From: a bacterium
GTDB lineage: Bacteria; Patescibacteriota; Minisyncoccia; Phycocordibacterales; Zambryskibacteraceae
NCBI GenBank assembly: GCA_030649135.1
Contig: JAUSGI010000002.1
Location: forward strand, 1 to 64,000
DNA length: 64,000 bases
Direction of reading: 5' to 3'
The translations under genes and the position numbers were made by a program. The notes beneath the pieces are model-generated. The model ran no database searches, was not told where the DNA came from, and saw nothing but the letters and a program-made list of their open reading frames with translations. This document shows, one piece after another, positions 1-12,294 of the stretch. The first letter of the stretch is position 1. Each line of letters begins with the position of its first letter.

Positions 1-3000
1 GTTTGGTCAATGATAAACGGAGAGGTGTCTGGTGAAGCGGAGTCCTCCACGATGAACGCAGGTGCTCCTGCCGTTCCCGTTTGAGTTACAGAGAGTTTGC
101 CCCACGGTGTCGTCGTTCCGATGCCGACGTTGCCCGAGGAATCAATCGTCATCCTTTGCAAAGCACTCGTCCACAAAGAGAGTGCGCTGAGCGAATTGTT
201 GTACTGCACGAGACCCTGAGCTTCAGAATCCGTGTCGCCAAGCTGGAGTCGCGCAAGACCAGTATTGCCAGAGATGACTGAAATATACGCGGCCGCACCT
301 GCGGTACTGCTTCTATCAAAGAGAGCAACCGTACCCGCGGTCGTTGCCCATGTTTTTCCAGAACCAGTCTTCACGACATCGAGGCTTGTGTCAGGACTCG
401 TGGTGCCGATGCCGACGTTGCCGGATAGGTTAGTCATCGCTCCTTCAAGGCCAAAGAATGTTGCATCGGAGGGACCAGAGGTGTTCCCATCGTTAAAACC
501 CTCTACAAAAACTCCAATACTATAAGTAAGTGTTGCGTGATTATGGTAAATTTGAACAGATGTCCCACTAACTTGAAGCAATGGATGGTTGCTTGTGGTT
601 CCGTTGGCGCTGACCATACGAGCCACCCAAGTACCGACTGCCGTTCTATAAACTATATAGACCGCACCCGTAGGTGTTCCCGTGATTTGCGTAACGAGCT
701 TAATTCTATATTGGTATCCTGCTTGCAAGATACTCACCCCGTCATAAAGATTAATAGTAACTGCCGTTGAGACAGGAACACTATATGTAGCATTATAAAA
801 ATGCGATGCCACTGTAGAGCCGCTTCTGATACTTCCGTTGACATCAAGCTTGAAACTTGGCCCCGCCGTCCCGATGCCGACGTTCCTACTTGAATCCACC
901 ACTAACCCCGTACCCCCTACTGTGAGAAGAGTGGAATAAAGGTCGGTGGAAGAGGCAGTAGTACTGAAGAGATTGGTCGAGGTGGCGGAGGTACCAGTGG
1001 CGTTATTGAAAGTGAAGTTTTGGAGAGTGGAGGAAGCCTTCACCAAGAGATTAGCGAAGGTGGCGGAACCAGAATTGAGGAGCGCTGAATAAAGATTAGT
1101 GGAAGAGGCAGTAGTACTGAAGAGATTGGTCGAGGTGGCATTCTGGAAAGTAGAGGAGGATGTCACCAAAAGATTTTTAATGGTGGCCAGACCGAGAGCA
1201 TCGATGGAGAAGAGGGTGGTGGTGGAGAAGGCCGCGGTGGAAGAAGAAACCAGGAAGAGGTTGGCGTTATATGTATCGAGAGCGCCAGCGTGGAGAGCGA
1301 ACCTGGCATAAGGAGAAGTGGTACCGATGCCGACGTTGCCGACATTGGTCACAATAAAGTTTGTGGCGGTCGAGGAACCGACAACGAAAGAAGGTCCGCT
1401 GATACCGTTCGGATTTACAGAGAGGAGGCCCCACGGTGTAGTCGTCCCGATCCCGACATTCCTCGATGAATCCACCACTAGACCAGTACCCCCTACTGTC
1501 AAAAGTGAGGAGTAGAGATTGGTCGAAGAAGCAGTGGTGGAGAAGAAGTTAGTAGTAGTGGCGTTTGTCGAAGTGGAGTTGAGGAAAGTTAGGTTCTGGA
1601 AAGTGGAAGAAGCATAGGAGAGTATATTTTGAGTAAGTAGGTTGGTGGTGGAAGCGTTAATCGCTTCGAAATTAGTGCTGAAAAGATTGGTCGAGGTGGC
1701 GCTGGTACCGGTAGCGTTGGCGAAGGTGAAGTTCTGGAGAGTAGTGGACCCGCTCGAGAAGATGTCGCCAGCTTGGTTGATGGAGAATTTGGTGGTGGAA
1801 GCTACTTTGAGATCCAAGAGATTGCCAGTAAAGCCCGTGATGGCATCAGCTGCGATAACCGTGCCTGAAGTGCCACCTACCACCGAGAGTTTGGCGTAGG
1901 GAGAAGTGGTGCCGATGCCGACGTTGCCGTTTCCTCTTACCGCCAGAAGTGAATTACCTGAATGGTCCTCAATTGATAGTGGGTAATTAGAACTATGATC
2001 AATAAGACGCAACAGTGCATTTGAAATTGCCGGACTCGAATTATTATTCGGGCGGCGTATTGTTGCTACTGCAACCGAAGGACTTCCATCTTGGTCTTCG
2101 ATATACAGACTCCGTGTATCGCTTGCTGGATTAATTGCAAGAGTAGCACTCGGGCTCGTTGTCCCGATGCCGACGTTACCATTAGTCACTATAAATTGAG
2201 TGGTAGTAGCTACTGCATCAGAAGACGAGGCGATGACAAACGCAGGTAAAGTGGTCGAGAGGTTGTGGGTACCTATGGAAAACTTAGCCCAAGGTGAAGT
2301 GGTGCTGACACCGACTCTTTGGTTGGTAGTGTCGATAGACAGTACCGCAAGCCCGGCGGCATTTTGGAACTGGAAGGTGTCGGTTCGGTCTGAAGCAGGG
2401 ATGAAGATGGCTCTAGGAGTAGTACCGTTGAAGGCAAAGGTGGTAGTGCCCGTAGAACCAACAGAAGAAGTCCACTCGTTTGATGCGTCGTATTGCACCC
2501 TAAACTGCGGCTGTGAAGTGGAGGTGATAGTTTGAGAGCCTGTAGTGATAATACCCCCAGCCAGAAGATTACCGGAATTATCCACTCTAAAAAGAACCTC
2601 GTCCCCCGCCGCATTTGTGTATTCGATGAAGTCGCCCGAAGGTGCAACATCGGTAATCCTTCGAGCGTTGAAGATGTTTACACCATTTGTTGTTTGGATG
2701 ATATTGAAAGTGCTCTCGGGAGTGTTTGTGCCGATACCAAGCCGAGAAGTGGCATCATCCCAAAAGAAATCGGCATTATTTTGAGTCAAGAGACCGCTCG
2801 CGCCGATAAATGGCACGGACCCAAGTGTGAGTGAGGTGAAGAGGTTATCGGAAACCGCTAGATTGGTAGTAGTAGCGTTGGTGATGATGGCATTGGTAGT
2901 CGTCGAGTTGGTGGACGTTGAATTGGTAGCGGTTAAGGCACCGACCGTAATGTCGTCGGCAATGAGAGAAGTGATGGTGGAAAAGAGAGATGTAAAGGTG

Positions 3001-4229
3001 TTGGTAAAGAAATTGGTAGACGTGGCGTTAGAGGTCGTGCTATTGGTAGCGTCAAAGGAAGTGGCAGAGACCCGTGGCGCGCCAACAGAGCTGTTGAAGA
3101 ACGCGTGACCAGCCGCGTTCAGGGTCACGTTTTTAGCATCAATAATAAAGACTTCATCTGGATTTCCTAAAGTAATTTTCCCACCGGCTGAGAAACTGCC
3201 CAATACTCCGAGCGAACCGAACGAACCACTCATGGCTATAACGGCGCTACCGACTTCTAACCCGCCACGTATCGAGACATTTTTTTGTATATCTAGATTG
3301 CCTTTAACAACTAAATCACTTTGGGTAGTAACAATATCTTCAAAGTAAGCCCGACCGATAACTTTCAGGTCTCCGCCGACTTCGAGAGTTGAGAGCAGTT
3401 TGGTTGCTCCCCTTACCAAAAGAGTTTTTCCAACTTCCACATTGCCTTCTAACTTTACATTCTCTCTGGTCATGGAGCCATTGGCAGTCACAAACGCGAG
3501 AGTGAAGTCTGTTGAACTGGCACCCCCTATGAATTCGGCATTCAAATTTTTAACTAAAGTTTTTGAATCTACCACGATGGGCGCAATACCATCTTGAATG
3601 TAAGACCTCAATTGACCCTCGGTCTCGATATGTCCCATAATGGCAACATTGCCTTCGCTATCCAAAAGTAGAATCTCGTTTTGATGAGTACCGGGACGGA
3701 AACCTAAGACAGTATTCGCATCATTTATCGAATCCCTAACAAAGTTAAATGATTTGTCGAAGAATCCAAAAACAATCGGCACCGGTAATAGCGCAAGCAA
3801 GAGCAGAGAAGCGAGCGTCGCCGCGATAAGTAACCTGCTCGATAACACAACTTTAAACGGAGAAAAGCGGGAATGAAATTTTTTATCGATGACTCTCTCA
3901 AGTATCAGCCCGATATCAGGGATAACCGTATTGGAAGAAACTTTTTCAGTTTTATTTTCTACTGAGGATTGCTCTTCGTATTTATTGAAGTCGGTATGAG
4001 GTGACTGGGACGATTCAAGAGACCGGAAATTTCCGTTCTGAACTTGAGCCCGAATCATCTGCTTCTTCATGTAATCATCTAAAACAGGCTTGGTTGTATA
4101 CCAAGCATTTCCAATTTTTTTTGAAGTCAGTTTTTTCTTACGGGCAAGTAGACTCAAATATTCAGCACTGTAAGGAACATGGTGCGCCGCCTCAGACATT
4201 GAAAGCCAGTTTTCAGCTTCGTTTTTCAT
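1..4229 (-). CDS. Giant surface fibre/adhesin-like protein, partial. The C-terminus lies beyond the window start. It has an N-terminal HTH_17-like segment and tail-fibre-like GNVGIGTTSP repeat modules.
   Basis: A minus-strand ATG at 4229 opens a frame (coordinate mod 3 = 2) with no stop down to position 1. The ORF track omits it because its stop is outside the window. The N-terminus reads MKNEAENWLSMSEAAHHVPYSAEYLSLLARKKKLTSKKIGNAWYTTKPVLDDY, which matches the excisionase/MerR-type HTH pattern. The motif G-N-V-G-I-G-T-T (revcomp of gtgccgatgccgacgttgcc) is in frame at about 119, 403, 862, 1321, 1441, 1908, 2158 and 2718. Long Ser/Thr/Asn tracts separate the repeats. Confidence 0.7.
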   Translation of the reverse strand, partial: MKNEAENWLSMSEAAHHVPYSAEYLSLLARKKKLTSKKIGNAWYTTKPVLDDYMKKQMIRAQVQNGNFRSLESSQSPHTDFNKYEEQSSVENKTEKVSSNTVIPDIGLILERVIDKKFHSRFSPFKVVLSSRLLIAATLASLLLLALLPVPIVFGFFDKSFNFVRDSINDANTVLGFRPGTHQNEILLLDSEGNVAIMGHIETEGQLRSYIQDGIAPIVVDSKTLVKNLNAEFIGGASSTDFTLAFVTANGSMTRENVKLEGNVEVGKTLLVRGATKLLSTLEVGGDLKVIGRAYFEDIVTTQSDLVVKGNLDIQKNVSIRGGLEVGSAVIAMSGSFGSLGVLGSFSAGGKITLGNPDEVFIIDAKNVTLNAAGHAFFNSSVGAPRVSATSFDATNSTTSNATSTNFFTNTFTSLFSTITSLIADDITVGALTATNSTSTNSTTTNAIITNATTTNLAVSDNLFTSLTLGSVPFIGASGLLTQNNADFFWDDATSRLGIGTNTPESTFNIIQTTNGVNIFNARRITDVAPSGDFIEYTNAAGDEVLFRVDNSGNLLAGGIITTGSQTITSTSQPQFRVQYDASNEWTSSVGSTGTTTFAFNGTTPRAIFIPASDRTDTFQFQNAAGLAVLSIDTTNQRVGVSTTSPWAKFSIGTHNLSTTLPAFVIASSSDAVATTTQFIVTNGNVGIGTTSPSATLAINPASDTRSLYIEDQDGSPSVAVATIRRPNNNSSPAISNALLRLIDHSSNYPLSIEDHSGNSLLAVRGNGNVGIGTTSPYAKLSVVGGTSGTVIAADAITGFTGNLLDLKVASTTKFSINQAGDIFSSGSTTLQNFTFANATGTSATSTNLFSTNFEAINASTTNLLTQNILSYASSTFQNLTFLNSTSTNATTTNFFSTTASSTNLYSSLLTVGGTGLVVDSSRNVGIGTTTPWGLLSVNPNGISGPSFVVGSSTATNFIVTNVGNVGIGTTSPYARFALHAGALDTYNANLFLVSSSTAAFSTTTLFSIDALGLATIKNLLVTSSSTFQNATSTNLFSTTASSTNLYSALLNSGSATFANLLVKASSTLQNFTFNNATGTSATSTNLFSTTASSTDLYSTLLTVGGTGLVVDSSRNVGIGTAGPSFKLDVNGSIRSGSTVASHFYNATYSVPVSTAVTINLYDGVSILQAGYQYRIKLVTQITGTPTGAVYIVYRTAVGTWVARMVSANGTTSNHPLLQVSGTSVQIYHNHATLTYSIGVFVEGFNDGNTSGPSDATFFGLEGAMTNLSGNVGIGTTSPDTSLDVVKTGSGKTWATTAGTVALFDRSSTAGAAAYISVISGNTGLARLQLGDTDSEAQGLVQYNNSLSALSLWTSALQRMTIDSSGNVGIGTTTPWGKLSVTQTGTAGAPAFIVEDSASPDTSPFIIDQ

Positions 4230-4457
4230 GCCGATATACCGTATCGGTTACAAAATATCATTGTCTTTATTATATATTTTAGAAAGGGTGACTACTACCT
4301 ATTTTGTGATTTTCTGTGGATAGAAACCTAAAAAACTGACGCCTAAATTGTGATGCGTTTATCGAGCTGATGAATCTAAACCAATACTTAAACAACAAAA
4401 TAACTAAATAAACATACAAACATTAATACACCTTAATAATCTCTTGTGATAGAAAGT

Positions 4458-4976
4458 TTATAAACCTATATATTTAAAGCTCTTAAGTCTAAAAATACCG
4501 AAAGCTCTACCTTTTATGTGCCACCTATCTATAAATCCCAGTTCGCGTGAATCTATACTGACATCTCTATTATCTCCAAGTATAAAATACTCCTCCGGAT
4601 CAAGCTTAGATTGGGTTACACCTATAAGCAACTCAAGATCGTCTATAAGATAATCTTCCTCAAGGGTAATGCCTGGATCAAGACGATTAGTCCTTATCAC
4701 TACTTGGTCTTCCTCGATACTGAAACGCTCTCCCGGTAAAACAATTATTCTTTTAATAACTTTGAATGATTCCCCTCTAGGAATAGCGACCACAATATCC
4801 CCGCGTTTTGGGTCTTTGTATAAATAAGCAAGTTTATTTATAAAAACATAATCACCGGAGAGGATGGTGGGCGACATTGAATCTCCGTTAACAATAAACC
4901 CTTCCAATGCAAATAGACGAACCAGAAGTGCCAAAGCAAACGCCACCAGAAATACTGATAAAATTTTCGTTTTCAT
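4458..4976 (-). CDS. lepB: Signal peptidase I (S26 family)
   Basis: N-terminal TM segment; GDSMSPT Ser box; KRIIVLPGE and GDNRDVSIDSR motifs. Confidence 0.9.
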   Translation of the reverse strand: MKTKILSVFLVAFALALLVRLFALEGFIVNGDSMSPTILSGDYVFINKLAYLYKDPKRGDIVVAIPRGESFKVIKRIIVLPGERFSIEEDQVVIRTNRLDPGITLEEDYLIDDLELLIGVTQSKLDPEEYFILGDNRDVSIDSRELGFIDRWHIKGRAFGIFRLKSFKYIGL

Positions 4977-5014: not shown

Positions 5015-5257
5015 ATGTTTATGGCAGAAATCTATTTTTCTATTAAAGAGGCGGCCGAGATTCTGGGAGTATCTCCTTTAACTTTACGCAACTGGGATAA
5101 GTCCGGTAAGTTCCCGGCCCAAAGGCATCCGATGAACAACTACCGAGTTTACAGACTTTCAGCTCTGGAAAATATTGTCAATGATATTGAAGGTGGCACA
5201 AACAAAAGTAACGCAGAGAAACGTATTAAAAAACTAATGATTAGGCACGAGGAGTAA
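5015..5257 (+). CDS. Small MerR/excisionase-family (HTH_17) DNA-binding protein
   Basis: FSIKEAAEILGVSPLTLRNWDKSGKFPAQRHPMNNYRVYR is a textbook HTH_17 signature. Confidence 0.75.
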   Translation: MFMAEIYFSIKEAAEILGVSPLTLRNWDKSGKFPAQRHPMNNYRVYRLSALENIVNDIEGGTNKSNAEKRIKKLMIRHEE

Positions 5258-12039: not shown

Positions 12040-12294
12040 TGTGTTGCCCCAACATGATGTCGGGAAATTATTATTAACGTCTGTCGCAGATAAATATTTT
12101 TAGAAACAATCTGTCTGCGGTTGCATTCATTATGGTACTAAAAGTTAACATATACAATAGGGAAAATAAAAAAATGTGGATAACTTTTTAAAAATTTCCG
12201 TCCGCACGCGGAGAGCGGGGCTAGCTCCAAACGAATATCTTTGTGAGTGCGGCCGCTCTCCACGAACAAAAAGAAACTAATACCATTATAACTA

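What the first reader, a model, noticed from the sequence alone, without database searches (positions are those of the whole stretch)
1..4229. Giant tail-fibre-like surface protein whose N-terminus is an excisionase/MerR-type HTH, with a second standalone HTH_17 gene 800 bp away
The >1400-codon ORF is invisible in the ORF track because it runs off the window. It begins with a near-consensus HTH_17 segment (LSMSEAAHHVPYSAEYLSLLARKKKLTSKKIGNAWYTTKPVLDDY). It then continues into a predicted membrane anchor, a beta-helix-like region, S/T/N-rich stalk segments and about eight GNVGIGTTSP repeat modules typical of phage tail fibres and other fibrous adhesins. A cytoplasmic DNA-binding head fused through one TM helix to a huge extracellular fibre recalls ToxR-like one-component signalling, here with an adhesin as the sensor. 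The small gene 5015-5257 encodes a second, standalone HTH_17 protein.
Basis: partly seen in the sequence, partly recalled or inferred. Interest (0 to 1): 0.6.

Follow-up and report, generated by a model that had tools for sequence, protein, structure and literature searches.

The report
Membrane-tethered DNA-binding giant surface fibre
This is the start of a giant, phage-tail-fibre-like surface fibre of an ultra-small Parcubacteria (CPR) bacterium that carries a DNA-binding-type domain on the inside of the membrane, next to a conserved palindrome at its own gene start, so the fibre may regulate its own production.

Summary
Window 4229..3 (- strand) is one open frame of 1409 codons that runs off the window. 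It encodes a MerR/excisionase-type winged HTH (aa 8-60), a variable linker, one TM helix (aa ~130-156), a conserved module, a beta-rich region, S/T/N-rich stalks and nine GxGT modules similar to phage tail fibres.

The gene is the hallmark of a Parcubacteria-only family found in at least 111 species genomes. The HTH lies in the same ORF in 76 of 80 loci examined.

New findings:
- A palindrome, CCGATA-N3/5-TATCGG, lies 1 nt upstream of the ATG. It is unique in the 64 kb window and present in 60 loci exactly, and 72 of 77 with one mismatch.
- The same TATCGG motif accompanies other genes of this HTH subfamily in unrelated contexts.
- The small MerR gene is a conserved divergent neighbour in 58 of 80 loci.
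- The layout of 1-3 HTH copies, one TM helix and a large C-terminal region recurs in most of the 150 best matches, out of 7,986 cluster representatives that carry this HTH.

Best reading: a membrane-anchored adhesin-like fibre that is also a transmembrane transcription regulator acting on its own promoter. Signalling itself is untested. Novelty: new variant of a known kind.

The parts
3..4229 (-). Giant gene, 5' part: 1409 codons, with the C-terminus lying beyond the window
   Evidence: Open frame with no stop. First ATG after the in-frame TAA at 4250-4248. An identical Logan contig, L001, also breaks inside the gene.
4050..4208 (-). Cytoplasmic winged helix-turn-helix domain (aa 8-60), HTH_17/MerR-excisionase type
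   Evidence: HTH_17 17.9 bits here and 28.8-47 bits in relatives. AF2 pLDDT 86.5, with fold matches to BldC, RdfS, RacA and Xis. Net charge is about +6.
3843..4049 (-). Variable, polar linker (aa 61-129) between the HTH and the membrane
   Evidence: Poorly conserved and variable in length across orthologs.
3762..3842 (-). Single transmembrane segment (aa ~130-156). Basic residues precede it, and it ends in P-x-P-I-V-F-G|F.
   Evidence: Only hydrophobic stretch in 1409 aa. The positive-inside pattern and a small -3/-1 pattern are conserved in the orthologs examined.
3354..3737 (-). Family-defining extracellular juxtamembrane module (aa 165-292): GFRPGTH.NEILLLD...NLNAE..G...DFTLAFVT.NG
   Evidence: 30 invariant columns and 75% mean column identity. 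Found in 111 species genomes, every one labelled as Patescibacteria/CPR or left unclassified. No PDB sequence relative. Absent from IMG/VR viral contigs.
3045..3353 (-). Beta-rich, possibly beta-solenoid region (aa 293-395)
   Evidence: Weak Bactofilin-like hits. AF2 predicts strands at pLDDT 55-72 only.
3..3044 (-). Hypervariable distal fibre (aa 396-1409): S/T/N-rich stalk repeats and nine G[IV][GS]T modules
   Evidence: Motif list. PHROG tail-fibre families. Only modular similarity between species.
30..482 (-). Module most similar to phage tail fibre proteins (aa ~1250-1400)
   Evidence: tblastn gives 36-41% identity to the Roseobacter phage CRP-823 tail fibre (4e-13), Synechococcus phage S-SM2 (3e-13) and S-CBP1. 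phrog_9942 scores 2e-7.
4231..4247 (.). Palindrome CCGATA-N5-TATCGG, 1 nt upstream of the ATG; candidate operator for the HTH
   Evidence: One match in 64 kb against 0.01 expected. Exactly one match per locus in 60 of 80 orthologous loci, always 5' of the giant gene. With one mismatch allowed, 72 of 77 loci. The TATCGG half-site co-occurs with this HTH subfamily elsewhere.
4269..4274 (-). TATAAT -10-like box, 21 nt upstream of the palindrome
   Evidence: Read from the sequence. In orthologs a -10-like box ends a median of 22 nt (range 12-38) before the palindrome. The strict sigma-70 scan found no full promoter here.
4314..4323 (-). CTATCCACAG, a DnaA-box-like conserved upstream element
   Evidence: TTATCCACA, TTGTCCACAG or TTATCAACA sits at the equivalent place in most orthologous loci. 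Not a general promoter element in the window.
4458..4976 (-). Signal peptidase I (lepB), same strand, directly upstream of the giant gene
   Evidence: Peptidase_S26 7.4e-35. Lies between the MerR gene and the giant gene in about 25 of 80 loci.
5015..5257 (+). Small MerR-type HTH-only protein (80 aa), divergent; conserved partner gene
   Evidence: MerR 45.4 bits against a cut-off of 28.2. PDB relatives are the MerR-like regulator 3qao and the CarA/CarH DNA-binding domain 2jml. Present and divergent 336-1483 nt upstream of the giant gene in 57 of the 58 loci that have it (58 of 80; 5.9 kb away in L036), versus gatB in 11, obg in 10 and secA in 10.

Best explanation
The ORF encodes the N-terminal 1409 or more residues of a Parcubacteria (CPR) family of giant, single-pass, N-in membrane proteins.

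Outside the cell, a conserved juxtamembrane module carries a long, probably trimeric, phage-tail-fibre-like fibre. Its distal part is hypervariable, as expected for a host- or partner-binding adhesin.

Inside the cell, a flexible linker holds a MerR/excisionase-type winged HTH of a distinctive HTH_17 subfamily, with motif YS.EYLSLLAR.G.L..K.G..W.T. I propose that this HTH binds the TATCGG/CCGATA palindrome at about +15 of the gene's own transcription unit. The fibre protein would then be a transmembrane transcription regulator that feeds back on its own very costly gene. The small divergent MerR-type protein would be a second, conserved regulator of the same locus.

Shown by computation:
- the ORF and its domain order, and its conservation across species;
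- the HTH fold;
- the tail-fibre similarity;
- the uniqueness and conservation of the palindrome;
- the co-occurrence of the half-site with the HTH subfamily.

Inferred, not shown:
- the membrane topology;
- trimeric state;
- adhesin role;
- actual DNA binding, its sign (repression or activation), and any dependence on the state of the fibre.
For: Architecture and conservation:
- The HTH, TM helix and conserved module lie in one ORF in 76 of 80 loci from different species. Two exceptions are cut by contig ends, and in L061 the HTH is on an overlapping frame.
- The N-terminal ~430-470 aa are 40-55% identical between species, while the rest is only modularly similar.

HTH:
- It passes the Pfam cut-off in relatives, and the fold matches BldC, RdfS, RacA and Xis.
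- Its net charge is about +6.

Topology: K/R residues precede the TM helix.

Fibre:
- PHROG tail-fibre hits and 36-41% identity to phage tail fibres.
- Peptidase_S74 (E 5e-14) occurs in ortholog L011 and in the giant ORF downstream of split HTH P0058.

Cis element:
- The palindrome is unique in the window, with 0.01 expected.
- It occurs once per locus in 60 of 80 loci, and in 72 of 77 with one mismatch, always 8-336 nt before the HTH-coding region.
- Extra half-sites upstream number 41, against 4.2 +/- 2.0 in shuffles.

The same motif accompanies this HTH subfamily where no small MerR gene is nearby:
- TATCGGTATCGG-N21-CCGATACCGATA lies directly upstream of the HTH gene in L088 and of the Fic-HTH gene in L093.
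- L092 has three TATCGG..CCGATA pairs.
- 'aaagTATCGGnTAG' lies 13-15 nt after a -10 box in the split HTH+giant operons L086, L095 and L098.

General layout: 1-3 HTH copies, one TM helix and a C-terminal region of up to 6,890 aa recur in most of the best 150 of 7,986 representatives.
Against: - No experiment exists, and every binding claim rests on co-occurrence.
- The window's own HTH scores below the Pfam cut-off.
- A dyad-symmetric site fits a dimer better than a trimeric fibre.
- The recognition helix is almost invariant across thousands of paralogs, yet some of their loci lack the motif: L091, L094, and L082, which has only a one-mismatch version.
- Only one palindrome occurs per locus, even where 2-3 HTH-TM paralogs are present.
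- The small MerR protein is an alternative binder.
- The element lies in the transcribed leader and could act as RNA. Variants such as CCGATG..TATCGG are G.U-compatible.
- Trimerisation rests on homology. S74 appears in one ortholog of about eight complete ones.
- The AF2 model of the extracellular base is unusable, at pLDDT 42.8.
Confidence: 0.5

Rival explanations
1. The small divergent MerR-type protein, not the giant's own HTH, binds the palindrome and controls the giant gene. The N-terminal HTH of the fibre would then have another cytoplasmic role, such as tethering to the nucleoid or a protein partner, or aiding targeting of a giant secretory protein.
For: - The small gene is a bona fide MerR HTH.
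- It is retained next to the giant gene in 58 of 80 loci, while the surrounding synteny decays to 10-25 of 80.
- It is highly conserved, at 80-92% identity in the window's clade.
- A palindrome suits a MerR-type dimer.
Against: - Thirteen loci have the exact palindrome but no MerR gene within the fetched upstream region.
- TATCGG/CCGATA arrays accompany HTH-subfamily genes in loci that have no MerR homolog in the flanks fetched.
- The site lies downstream of the -10 box rather than in the -35/-10 spacer that MerR activators use. That comparison rests on established knowledge of MerR.
- In the window lepB separates the two genes, and the palindrome is about 770 nt from the MerR start.
Confidence: 0.25
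2. The palindrome acts as an RNA hairpin at the 5' end of a very long mRNA, serving as a stabiliser or translational gate at the start codon, and has no connection to the HTH.
For: - It lies about 12-38 nt after a -10-like box, which places it in the transcribed leader.
- In the window it abuts the ATG.
- The N5 class often adds an inner C:G pair, as in CCGATAC-N3-GTATCGG.
- G.U-compatible and symmetric variants occur.
- Long-leader orthologs carry further covarying hairpins.
Against: - Both arms are conserved in sequence across very divergent lineages rather than covarying.
- The fold is weak in the window, at -10.8 kcal/mol with z -1.3.
- Single half-sites in split operons, and tandem direct half-sites in Fic-HTH promoters, cannot form this hairpin.
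- There is no Rfam match.
Confidence: 0.15
3. The HTH, linker and TM segment together form an exceptionally long cleavable signal peptide. Signal peptidase I, encoded next door, would cut after the conserved (V/S/A)-x-(G/S/A) site. The fibre would be released from the membrane, leaving a membrane stub that carries the HTH and could report export.
For: - In the 45 orthologs displayed, the TM segment ends with Pro at -5 to -7 and small residues at -3/-1 (VFG|F, SFG|Q, VSA|F), the classical signal-peptidase pattern.
- lepB lies directly upstream on the same strand in the window and in about 25 of 80 loci.
Against: - No signal-peptide predictor was available, so the pattern was read by eye.
- The wider set of proteins with 1-3 HTH copies and one TM helix shows no such c-region.
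- lepB adjacency is confined to one clade and could be plain synteny.
- A cleaved fibre would need another, unidentified anchor.
Confidence: 0.1
4. The gene is a prophage tail fibre, or the HTH-fibre fusion is an assembly or gene-calling artefact.
For: - The distal modules resemble phage tail fibres.
- Most copies of the gene are cut by contig ends.
Against: - The neighbours are housekeeping genes: lepB, gatB, obg and secA.
- The same fusion lies in one frame in 76 of 80 independent assemblies.
- The juxtamembrane module has no relative in 2.9 million viral contigs.
Confidence: 0.02

Closest known systems
Transmembrane transcription regulators (TTRs: ToxR, CadC, TcpP, VtrA; survey in PMC10269533)
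   Same: An N-terminal cytoplasmic DNA-binding domain, a single TM helix and an extracytoplasmic domain. Single-pass HTH-type TTRs are the commonest class.
   Different: The DNA-binding domain is HTH_17/MerR-excisionase type, not an OmpR-type winged helix. The ectodomain is a 1,250 to more than 3,600 aa tail-fibre-like fibre rather than a small sensor domain. The main text of the survey does not mention Patescibacteria or HTH_17. Split, untethered versions exist.
Phage tail fibres and tailspikes with a C-terminal intramolecular chaperone (Peptidase_S74, e.g. endosialidase)
   Same: GNVGIGT modules are 36-41% identical to phage tail fibre segments. PHROG tail-fibre families match. S74 occurs in ortholog L011 and in a split-operon giant.
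   Different: The gene is chromosomal, sits among housekeeping genes, and is anchored by an N-terminal TM helix with a cytoplasmic HTH. The conserved base module is absent from viral contigs. Most complete orthologs end in P/T/S/E-rich tails rather than S74.
Small MerR-like and excisionase winged-HTH proteins (BldC 6ama, RdfS 8dgl, RacA 5i44, Tn916 Xis 1y6u)
   Same: The fold of aa 8-60 matches: probabilities are 0.98 (BldC) and 0.97 (RdfS), rmsd 2.0 A over 48-50 columns. These proteins bind DNA as arrays on repeated half-sites (from my own knowledge of BldC and Xis).
   Different: Foldseek E-values are weak (0.16 or above) because the domain is so small. No PDB relative is found by sequence. 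Here the domain is fused to a TM helix and a giant ectodomain.
MYRF (eukaryotic membrane-bound transcription factor with a phage-derived S74/ICA domain)
   Same: It combines a DNA-binding domain, a TM helix and an S74-type trimerising domain in one protein. This comparison rests on my own knowledge; MYRF is mentioned in PMC13294678 and PMC8099431, listed.
   Different: The domain order and topology differ. In MYRF the S74 domain is cytoplasmic and releases the DNA-binding trimer. Here S74, where present, is at the far extracellular end.
Trimeric autotransporter adhesins (YadA); some database records name homologs 'YadA domain-containing structural protein'
   Same: A long, repetitive, probably trimeric surface fibre.
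   Different: No YadA head, stalk or anchor Pfam hit appears in the window protein or in seven complete or near-complete orthologs. Anchoring is by an N-terminal TM helix.

Membership tests
Pfam HTH_17 (PF12728) | Score at or above the gathering cut-off of 27 bits | tested here: inconclusive
   The window copy scores 17.9 bits, E 0.0038, aligned to profile 1-50/51. Orthologs score 17-25 bits. P0020 at 28.8, P0027 at 29.8 and P0091 at 38.0 pass, and paralogs score 31-47 bits. So the subfamily is a member, while this copy alone is sub-threshold.
Pfam HTH_17 (PF12728) | Winged helix-turn-helix fold of excisionase/MerR type | tested here: met
   AF2 pLDDT is 86.5, with elements strand-H-H-hairpin-H. 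The best PDB matches are BldC, RdfS excisionase, RacA, NmlR, TraN and Xis.
MerR family (PF00376/PF13411) | Match to the MerR HTH models | tested here: not met
   The giant protein has no MerR hit. The small gene 5015-5257 does: 45.4 bits against a cut-off of 28.2.
Transmembrane transcription regulators (definition of Demey et al., PMC10269533) | A DNA-binding domain and at least one TM region in one protein | tested here: met
   The HTH is at aa 8-60 and the single hydrophobic segment at aa ~130-156. The arrangement is conserved in 76 of 80 loci. The TM helix was called from hydropathy only.
Transmembrane transcription regulators | Binds DNA and regulates transcription from the membrane | not testable with these tools
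   Only indirect evidence exists: the unique conserved palindrome at the gene's 5' end, and co-occurrence of TATCGG with the HTH subfamily.
ToxR/CadC family | OmpR/PhoB-type winged-helix DNA-binding domain (Trans_reg_C) | tested here: not met
   No such Pfam or NCBIfam hit was found, even at E up to 10 on the N-terminal 68 aa.
Phage tail fibre / tailspike with intramolecular chaperone | C-terminal Peptidase_S74 domain | not testable with these tools
   The C-terminus lies outside the window, and the source contig could not be extended. Ortholog L011 has S74 at E 5e-14. Six other orthologs scanned whole lack it (L004, L016, L021, L041, L043, L047).
Phage tail fibre / tailspike with intramolecular chaperone | Sequence similarity of the repeat modules to virion tail fibre proteins | tested here: met
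   phrog_9942 scores 2e-7 and phrog_18345 scores 5e-5. tblastn against phage genomes gives 36-41% identity, E to 3e-13.
Phage tail fibre / tailspike with intramolecular chaperone | Encoded in a phage or prophage | tested here: not met
   The neighbours are housekeeping genes. The conserved base module is absent from IMG/VR.
Trimeric autotransporter adhesins | YadA-type C-terminal membrane anchor and head/stalk domains | tested here: not met
   No YadA-family Pfam hit appears in the window protein or in orthologs L004, L011, L016, L021, L041, L043 and L047.

The most novel reading that the evidence does not exclude
Thousands of CPR surface proteins, including this lineage-wide giant fibre, carry a dedicated cytoplasmic HTH that recognises TATCGG at the very start of its own transcription unit. 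The HTH is the first part of the protein to be made, and the site lies within about 30 nt of the promoter. The nascent chain could therefore bind its own gene in cis and, once the TM helix inserts, pin that locus to the membrane. This would form a built-in circuit coupling transcription, translation and export of proteins that take minutes to make. A variant of this reading is that the HTH-TM stub is cut off by the adjacent signal peptidase and acts as a read-out of successful export.
Probability: 0.15. Interest if true: 0.85.

Novelty: new variant of a known kind. Interest (0 to 1): 0.62.

Why it matters
CPR/Patescibacteria are thought to live attached to other cells, yet how most of them attach, and how they regulate anything with so few regulators, is largely unknown. 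This work yields four things.

- **A candidate attachment fibre.** It is conserved across at least 111 species genomes, all labelled Parcubacteria/CPR or unclassified, and has a hypervariable tip. Current assemblies mostly break inside it, and its annotation is minimal.
- **A candidate regulatory pair.** A distinctive HTH subfamily and the motif TATCGG/CCGATA can be tested directly with a 60-aa domain and a 17-bp oligonucleotide.
- **An extension of a known class.** It would add phage-fibre-like ectodomains and a new DNA-binding fold to the transmembrane transcription regulators.
- **A recurring layout.** One to three HTH copies, one TM helix and a very large C-terminal region look like a common design for CPR surface proteins.

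If the HTH does bind its own promoter, it gives a simple handle for controlling or reporting expression of surface fibres in organisms that are only now becoming genetically tractable.

Tried and rejected
- **Extending the contig to reach the C-terminus.** An exact 50-mer search of genome contigs and metagenome contigs found nothing. The only contig carrying the neighbouring lepB protein (Logan SRR13727527, 7.8 kb) ends inside the gene.
- **Structure of the conserved extracellular base (aa 162-392).** AF2 with 19 sequences gave pLDDT 42.8, so I ran no fold search on it.
- **PDB sequence searches.** Profiles of the HTH and of the base module returned only chance-level hits.
- **Paralogs in the window.** There is no second copy of this HTH subfamily or of the base module in the 64 kb.
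- **Literature.** Five full-text searches found no description of this family. The hits were the general TTR survey and unrelated CPR papers.
- **Rfam.** No known RNA family lies in the leaders of nine orthologous loci, only tRNAs elsewhere.
- **RNAalifold on the two-hairpin leader.** The MAFFT alignment was out of register, so I relied on per-sequence folds instead.
- **DnaA-box-like element as a general promoter element.** Rejected. The only other intergenic copy in the window is upstream of secA.
- **Half-sites upstream of paralogs.** Some lie inside the coding sequence of the upstream FtsW/RodA-like gene (inferred from its translated motif, not scanned) in L042 and L064. I discounted these.
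- **Prophage or fusion-artefact reading.** Rejected.

Full report
**1.

Translating window 4229->1 on the minus strand gives 1409 codons without a stop. The frame opens at an in-frame TAA at 4250-4248, and ATG 4229 is the first start codon. The ORF runs off the window, which is why the ORF list omits it.

The protein has a single hydrophobic stretch at aa ~130-156. It has nine G[IV][GS]T modules between aa 498 and 1369, seven of them NVGIGT. Its composition is 13.5% T, 12.4% S and 7.6% N, with no cysteine.

The small gene 5015-5257 (+) is a clear MerR-type HTH: MerR E 6.8e-12, HTH_17 1.2e-8. Its PDB relatives are 3qao and 2jml.

The neighbours are signal peptidase I, GatB, Obg, a MYG1-family protein and SecA. 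This is chromosomal housekeeping DNA.

**2. Is the N-terminus really an HTH?**

'Near-consensus' is too strong. The whole protein hits nothing in Pfam or NCBIfam. The first 68 aa alone reach only 17.9 bits on HTH_17 (E 0.0038, cut-off 27 bits), although they align to profile positions 1-50 of 51.

At family level the assignment is sound:
- Orthologs P0020 and P0027 pass the cut-off at 28.8 and 29.8 bits.
- A standalone relative scores 38 bits, and paralogs score 31-47 bits.
- An AlphaFold2 model of aa 1-68, built on 109 sequences, has pLDDT 86.5 and the order strand, two helices, beta-hairpin wing, helix.
- Its best PDB matches are BldC, the RdfS excisionase, RacA, the MerR protein NmlR, TraN and Tn916 Xis. 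Probabilities reach 0.98 and rmsd is 2.0 A. E-values are weak (0.16 or above) because the domain is so small.
- The domain carries a net charge of about +6.

The small MerR gene belongs to a different HTH subfamily. It does not match an HMM built from the giant's HTH.

**3. What the protein is**

Homologs found by protein search are labelled almost entirely as Patescibacteria/Parcubacteria. One is labelled Omnitrophica, and nearly all are annotated 'partial'.

Aligning them shows a conserved order:
- HTH;
- a linker of very variable length;
- one TM helix;
- a strongly conserved module (window aa 165-292, 30 invariant columns);
- a beta-rich region;
- divergent fibre.

A scan of one genome per species with that module found 111 species. 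All those carrying a taxonomic label belong to Patescibacteria/CPR (Zambryski-, Yanofsky-, Taylor-, Nealson-, Kaiser-, Wolfe-, Ryan- and Tagabacteria, plus generically labelled TPA bins); a few titles say only 'bacterium'.

In 76 of the 80 loci fetched, the family-specific HTH lies upstream of the module in the same ORF. Two of the four exceptions are cut by a contig end, and in L061 the HTH lies in an overlapping frame.

Sizes range from about 680 aa to more than 3,800 aa. About 60 of the 80 copies are truncated by contig ends or scaffold gaps, so assemblies routinely break in this gene.

Between species the first ~430-470 aa are 40-55% identical. The rest shares only shuffled modules. That is the pattern expected of a conserved anchor carrying a fast-evolving binding tip.

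The tail-fibre comparison is supported by several results:
- Two PHROG tail-fibre families match, at 2e-7 and 5e-5.
- Window aa ~1250-1400 is 36-41% identical to tail-fibre proteins of Roseobacter phage CRP-823 and Synechococcus phages S-SM2 and S-CBP1, with E down to 3e-13.
- Ortholog L011 carries a Peptidase_S74 intramolecular-chaperone domain at E 5e-14.

The conserved base module has no relative among 2.9 million viral contigs and none in the PDB by sequence. This is therefore a cellular protein that uses phage-like fibre modules, not a prophage gene.

The beta-helix idea has only weak support: Bactofilin-like hits below threshold, and a low-confidence model.

**4. Topology**

Basic residues crowd the N-terminal side of the TM helix here and in the 45 orthologs displayed. 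This predicts that the HTH is cytoplasmic and the fibre is outside the cell.

The TM segment ends in a conserved Pro-x-Pro...(V/S/A)-x-(G/S/A)|(F/Q) pattern that obeys the signal-peptidase -3/-1 rule. In addition, lepB sits directly upstream in the window and in about 25 of 80 loci. I therefore keep, as a low-probability rival, the idea that the HTH-TM part is a very long cleavable signal peptide. No predictor was available to test it.

**5.

One nucleotide upstream of the ATG lies CCGATA-cggta-TATCGG, at window 4231-4247.
- It is the only match to CCGATA-N3-8-TATCGG in the 64 kb, where 0.01 is expected.
- It is the only inverted pair of these half-sites in the window.
- The same pattern occurs exactly once in 60 of the 80 orthologous loci (each up to 20 kb), always 8-336 nt before the HTH-coding region.
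- Allowing one mismatch adds 12 loci, giving 72 of the 77 loci that include the gene start.

Two spacing classes exist. The N5 class is often really CCGATAC-N3-GTATCGG and includes the window's clade. The N3 class is often the perfect tATCCGATA-N3-TATCGGATa.

A TATAAT-like box ends a median of 22 nt before the palindrome, which puts the element at roughly +5 to +30 of the transcript. In the window that box is at 4274-4269. The transcription start itself is inferred only from these boxes.

Further upstream sits a DnaA-box-like TTATCCACA/TTGTCCACAG element, at window 4323-4314.

Additional half-sites are enriched in the 250 nt upstream. There are 41, against 4.2 +/- 2.0 in shuffles and a background of 0.64 per kb.

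**6. Who binds it?**

There are two candidates.

*(a) The small MerR protein.* It is divergent and lies upstream of the giant gene in 58 of 80 loci: 336-1483 nt away in 57 of them, and 5.9 kb away in L036. By comparison lepB, gatB, obg and secA are retained in 25, 11, 10 and 10 loci. It is therefore a conserved partner, not a chance neighbour.

*(b) The giant's own HTH.* I favour this candidate, because the half-site follows this HTH subfamily into unrelated settings where no MerR homolog is nearby:
- In a 60% GC contig (L088/L089), TATCGGTATCGG-N21-CCGATACCGATA ends 20 nt before a standalone HTH gene. Only one other half-site occurs in the 7.8 kb.
- The same four-half-site array precedes a Fic-like gene with a C-terminal HTH of this subfamily in L093.
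- L092, another Fic-HTH locus, has three TATCGG(n)-N11-22-CCGATA pairs.
- In three 'split' operons (L086, L095/L097, L098), 'aaagTATCGGnTAG' lies 13-15 nt after a -10 box.
- Several HTH-TM paralogs next to the giant gene also have promoter-proximal half-sites: L031, L054, L055, L059 and L072.

There are counter-examples. L091 and L094 have no site, L082 has only a one-mismatch version, and there is only one palindrome per locus even where paralogs are present.

An RNA-hairpin reading is not excluded, since the element lies in the leader and G.U-compatible variants exist. It is disfavoured for three reasons:
- The arm sequences are conserved rather than covarying.
- The fold is weak in the window, at -10.8 kcal/mol with z -1.3.
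- Single and tandem direct half-sites occur elsewhere, and these cannot form the hairpin.

**7. The architecture is general**

A profile of the HTH, searched against 1.84 billion cluster representatives, found 7,986 proteins at E<=1e-3 and 2,633 at E<=1e-10.

Most of the best 150 have two or three tandem HTH copies at the N-terminus, then one hydrophobic helix 15-200 aa later. Their C-terminal regions reach 6,890 aa. One carries a Hint/intein domain.

The domain also occurs in two other contexts:
- As a 72-97 aa standalone gene. In P0100, P0088 and P0058 its stop codon overlaps the start of a giant ORF. The L086 giant begins with a basic N-terminus plus a TM helix, and the L098 giant carries Peptidase_S74. 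P0091 instead precedes, without overlap, three small ORFs and a 976-aa T4SS_pilin protein; the first of these begins with a TM helix.
- At the C-terminus of Fic-like proteins outside CPR.

These fission and fusion cases tie the HTH functionally to large surface proteins. They also show that covalent tethering is not essential. That fits a dedicated (auto)regulator better than a strict mechanical signal transducer.

**8. Comparison with known systems**

The protein works like a transmembrane transcription regulator. It meets the published working definition, a DNA-binding domain plus a TM region (PMC10269533).

It is not a ToxR/CadC-family member, because it has no OmpR-type domain. It is not a MerR-family member by Pfam, and it is not a trimeric autotransporter despite some database names.

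The fibre part resembles phage tail fibres but is not phage-encoded. MYRF is an interesting distant analogy, combining a DNA-binding domain, a TM helix and an S74 domain, but its topology differs. That comparison rests on my own knowledge.

I found no paper describing this family.

**9. Verdict**

- The ToxR-like interpretation is partly supported. The architecture is confirmed and a plausible target site has been found. The sensor role is untested, and family membership is not met.
- Best explanation (confidence 0.5): a Parcubacteria membrane-anchored, tail-fibre-like adhesin whose cytoplasmic HTH binds the palindrome at its own promoter. The small MerR protein acts as a conserved co-regulator.
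- Novelty: new variant of a known kind.
- Interest: 0.62.

Noticed in passing
L023:9138-9235, L045:737-834, L060:9050-9147, L070:5273-5370, L075:9114-9211 and 10 other orthologous loci (not in the window): In orthologs where the palindrome lies 170-340 nt before the gene, the leader contains a two-hairpin element. Hairpin 1 has 11-14 bp, its sequence differs between lineages while pairing is kept, and it folds at -21 to -31 kcal/mol (z -3.6 to -8.2). It is followed by a conserved GGAAYGCA, a second hairpin, and then a T-rich/TATAAC stretch. There is no Rfam family at gathering score. It may be an attenuator or an undescribed leader RNA.
   Followed up: partly
window 4314-4323 (-) and 12174-12182 (-): A DnaA-box-like element (CTATCCACAG; TTATCCACA) lies upstream of the giant gene and also upstream of secA. 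The equivalent TTATCCACA, TTGTCCACAG or TTATCAACA is conserved 20-45 nt upstream of the -10 box in most orthologous loci and before some HTH-TM paralogs. Its binder is unknown.
   Followed up: partly
L088:3937-3981, L093:312-356, L092:2272-2305/3265-3298/6089-6111: Outside CPR, standalone or Fic-fused HTH genes of the same subfamily are preceded by TATCGGTATCGG-N21-CCGATACCGATA or by TATCGG..CCGATA pairs. This suggests an undescribed autoregulatory site for a class of Fic-family proteins.
   Followed up: partly
L086:5001-5228, L095:2501-2749, L098:2501-2791, L082:5001-5255: These are split versions of the architecture. In L086, L095 and L098 a 75-96 aa HTH gene overlaps by 4 nt the start of an ORF of more than 1,350 aa; the L086 ORF begins with a TM helix, and the L098 ORF carries LVIVD and Peptidase_S74. 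In L082 the 84-aa HTH gene precedes, without overlap, three small ORFs (the first beginning with a TM helix) and a 976-aa T4SS_pilin protein.
   Followed up: partly
window 3762-3790 (aa ~147-156) and the same position in orthologs: The TM segment ends in Pro-x-Pro...V-F-G|F. Across the orthologs displayed the -1 position is G, S or A and the -3 position is V, S, A or I, as at signal peptidase I sites. lepB is the next gene upstream.
   Followed up: partly
L002:2945-3568, L031:5355-5801, L036:906-5663, L042:6677-7300, L054:5869-6546, L055:770-1411, L059:3934-4335, L064:7765-8304, L072:3946-4449: Twelve of the 80 loci carry one or two further HTH-TM paralogs (134-1586 aa) on the same strand just upstream of the giant gene. 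The window has none.
   Followed up: partly
L004, L016, L036, L060, L070 (last ~100 aa of the giant ORF): Truly complete orthologs end in long Pro/Thr/Ser/Glu-rich low-complexity tails rather than a recognisable domain. Several apparently complete ORFs (L006, L061, L064, L069) are closed only by scaffold-gap Ns.
   Followed up: no
window 5241-5257: The 3' ends of the small MerR gene (+) and gatB (-) overlap convergently by 17 nt.
   Followed up: no
P0180 (1598 aa): One protein with two N-terminal HTH copies and a TM helix has an Intein_splicing/Hint domain (E 7e-21) near its C-terminus.
   Followed up: no
window aa 225-245 (nt ~3495-3557) and a second copy in several orthologs: The motif NLNA[DE]x[LIV][DG]G....DFTL recurs, sometimes twice, in the conserved base region. 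From memory it resembles a motif common in phage tail fibre proteins; I did not test this.
   Followed up: no
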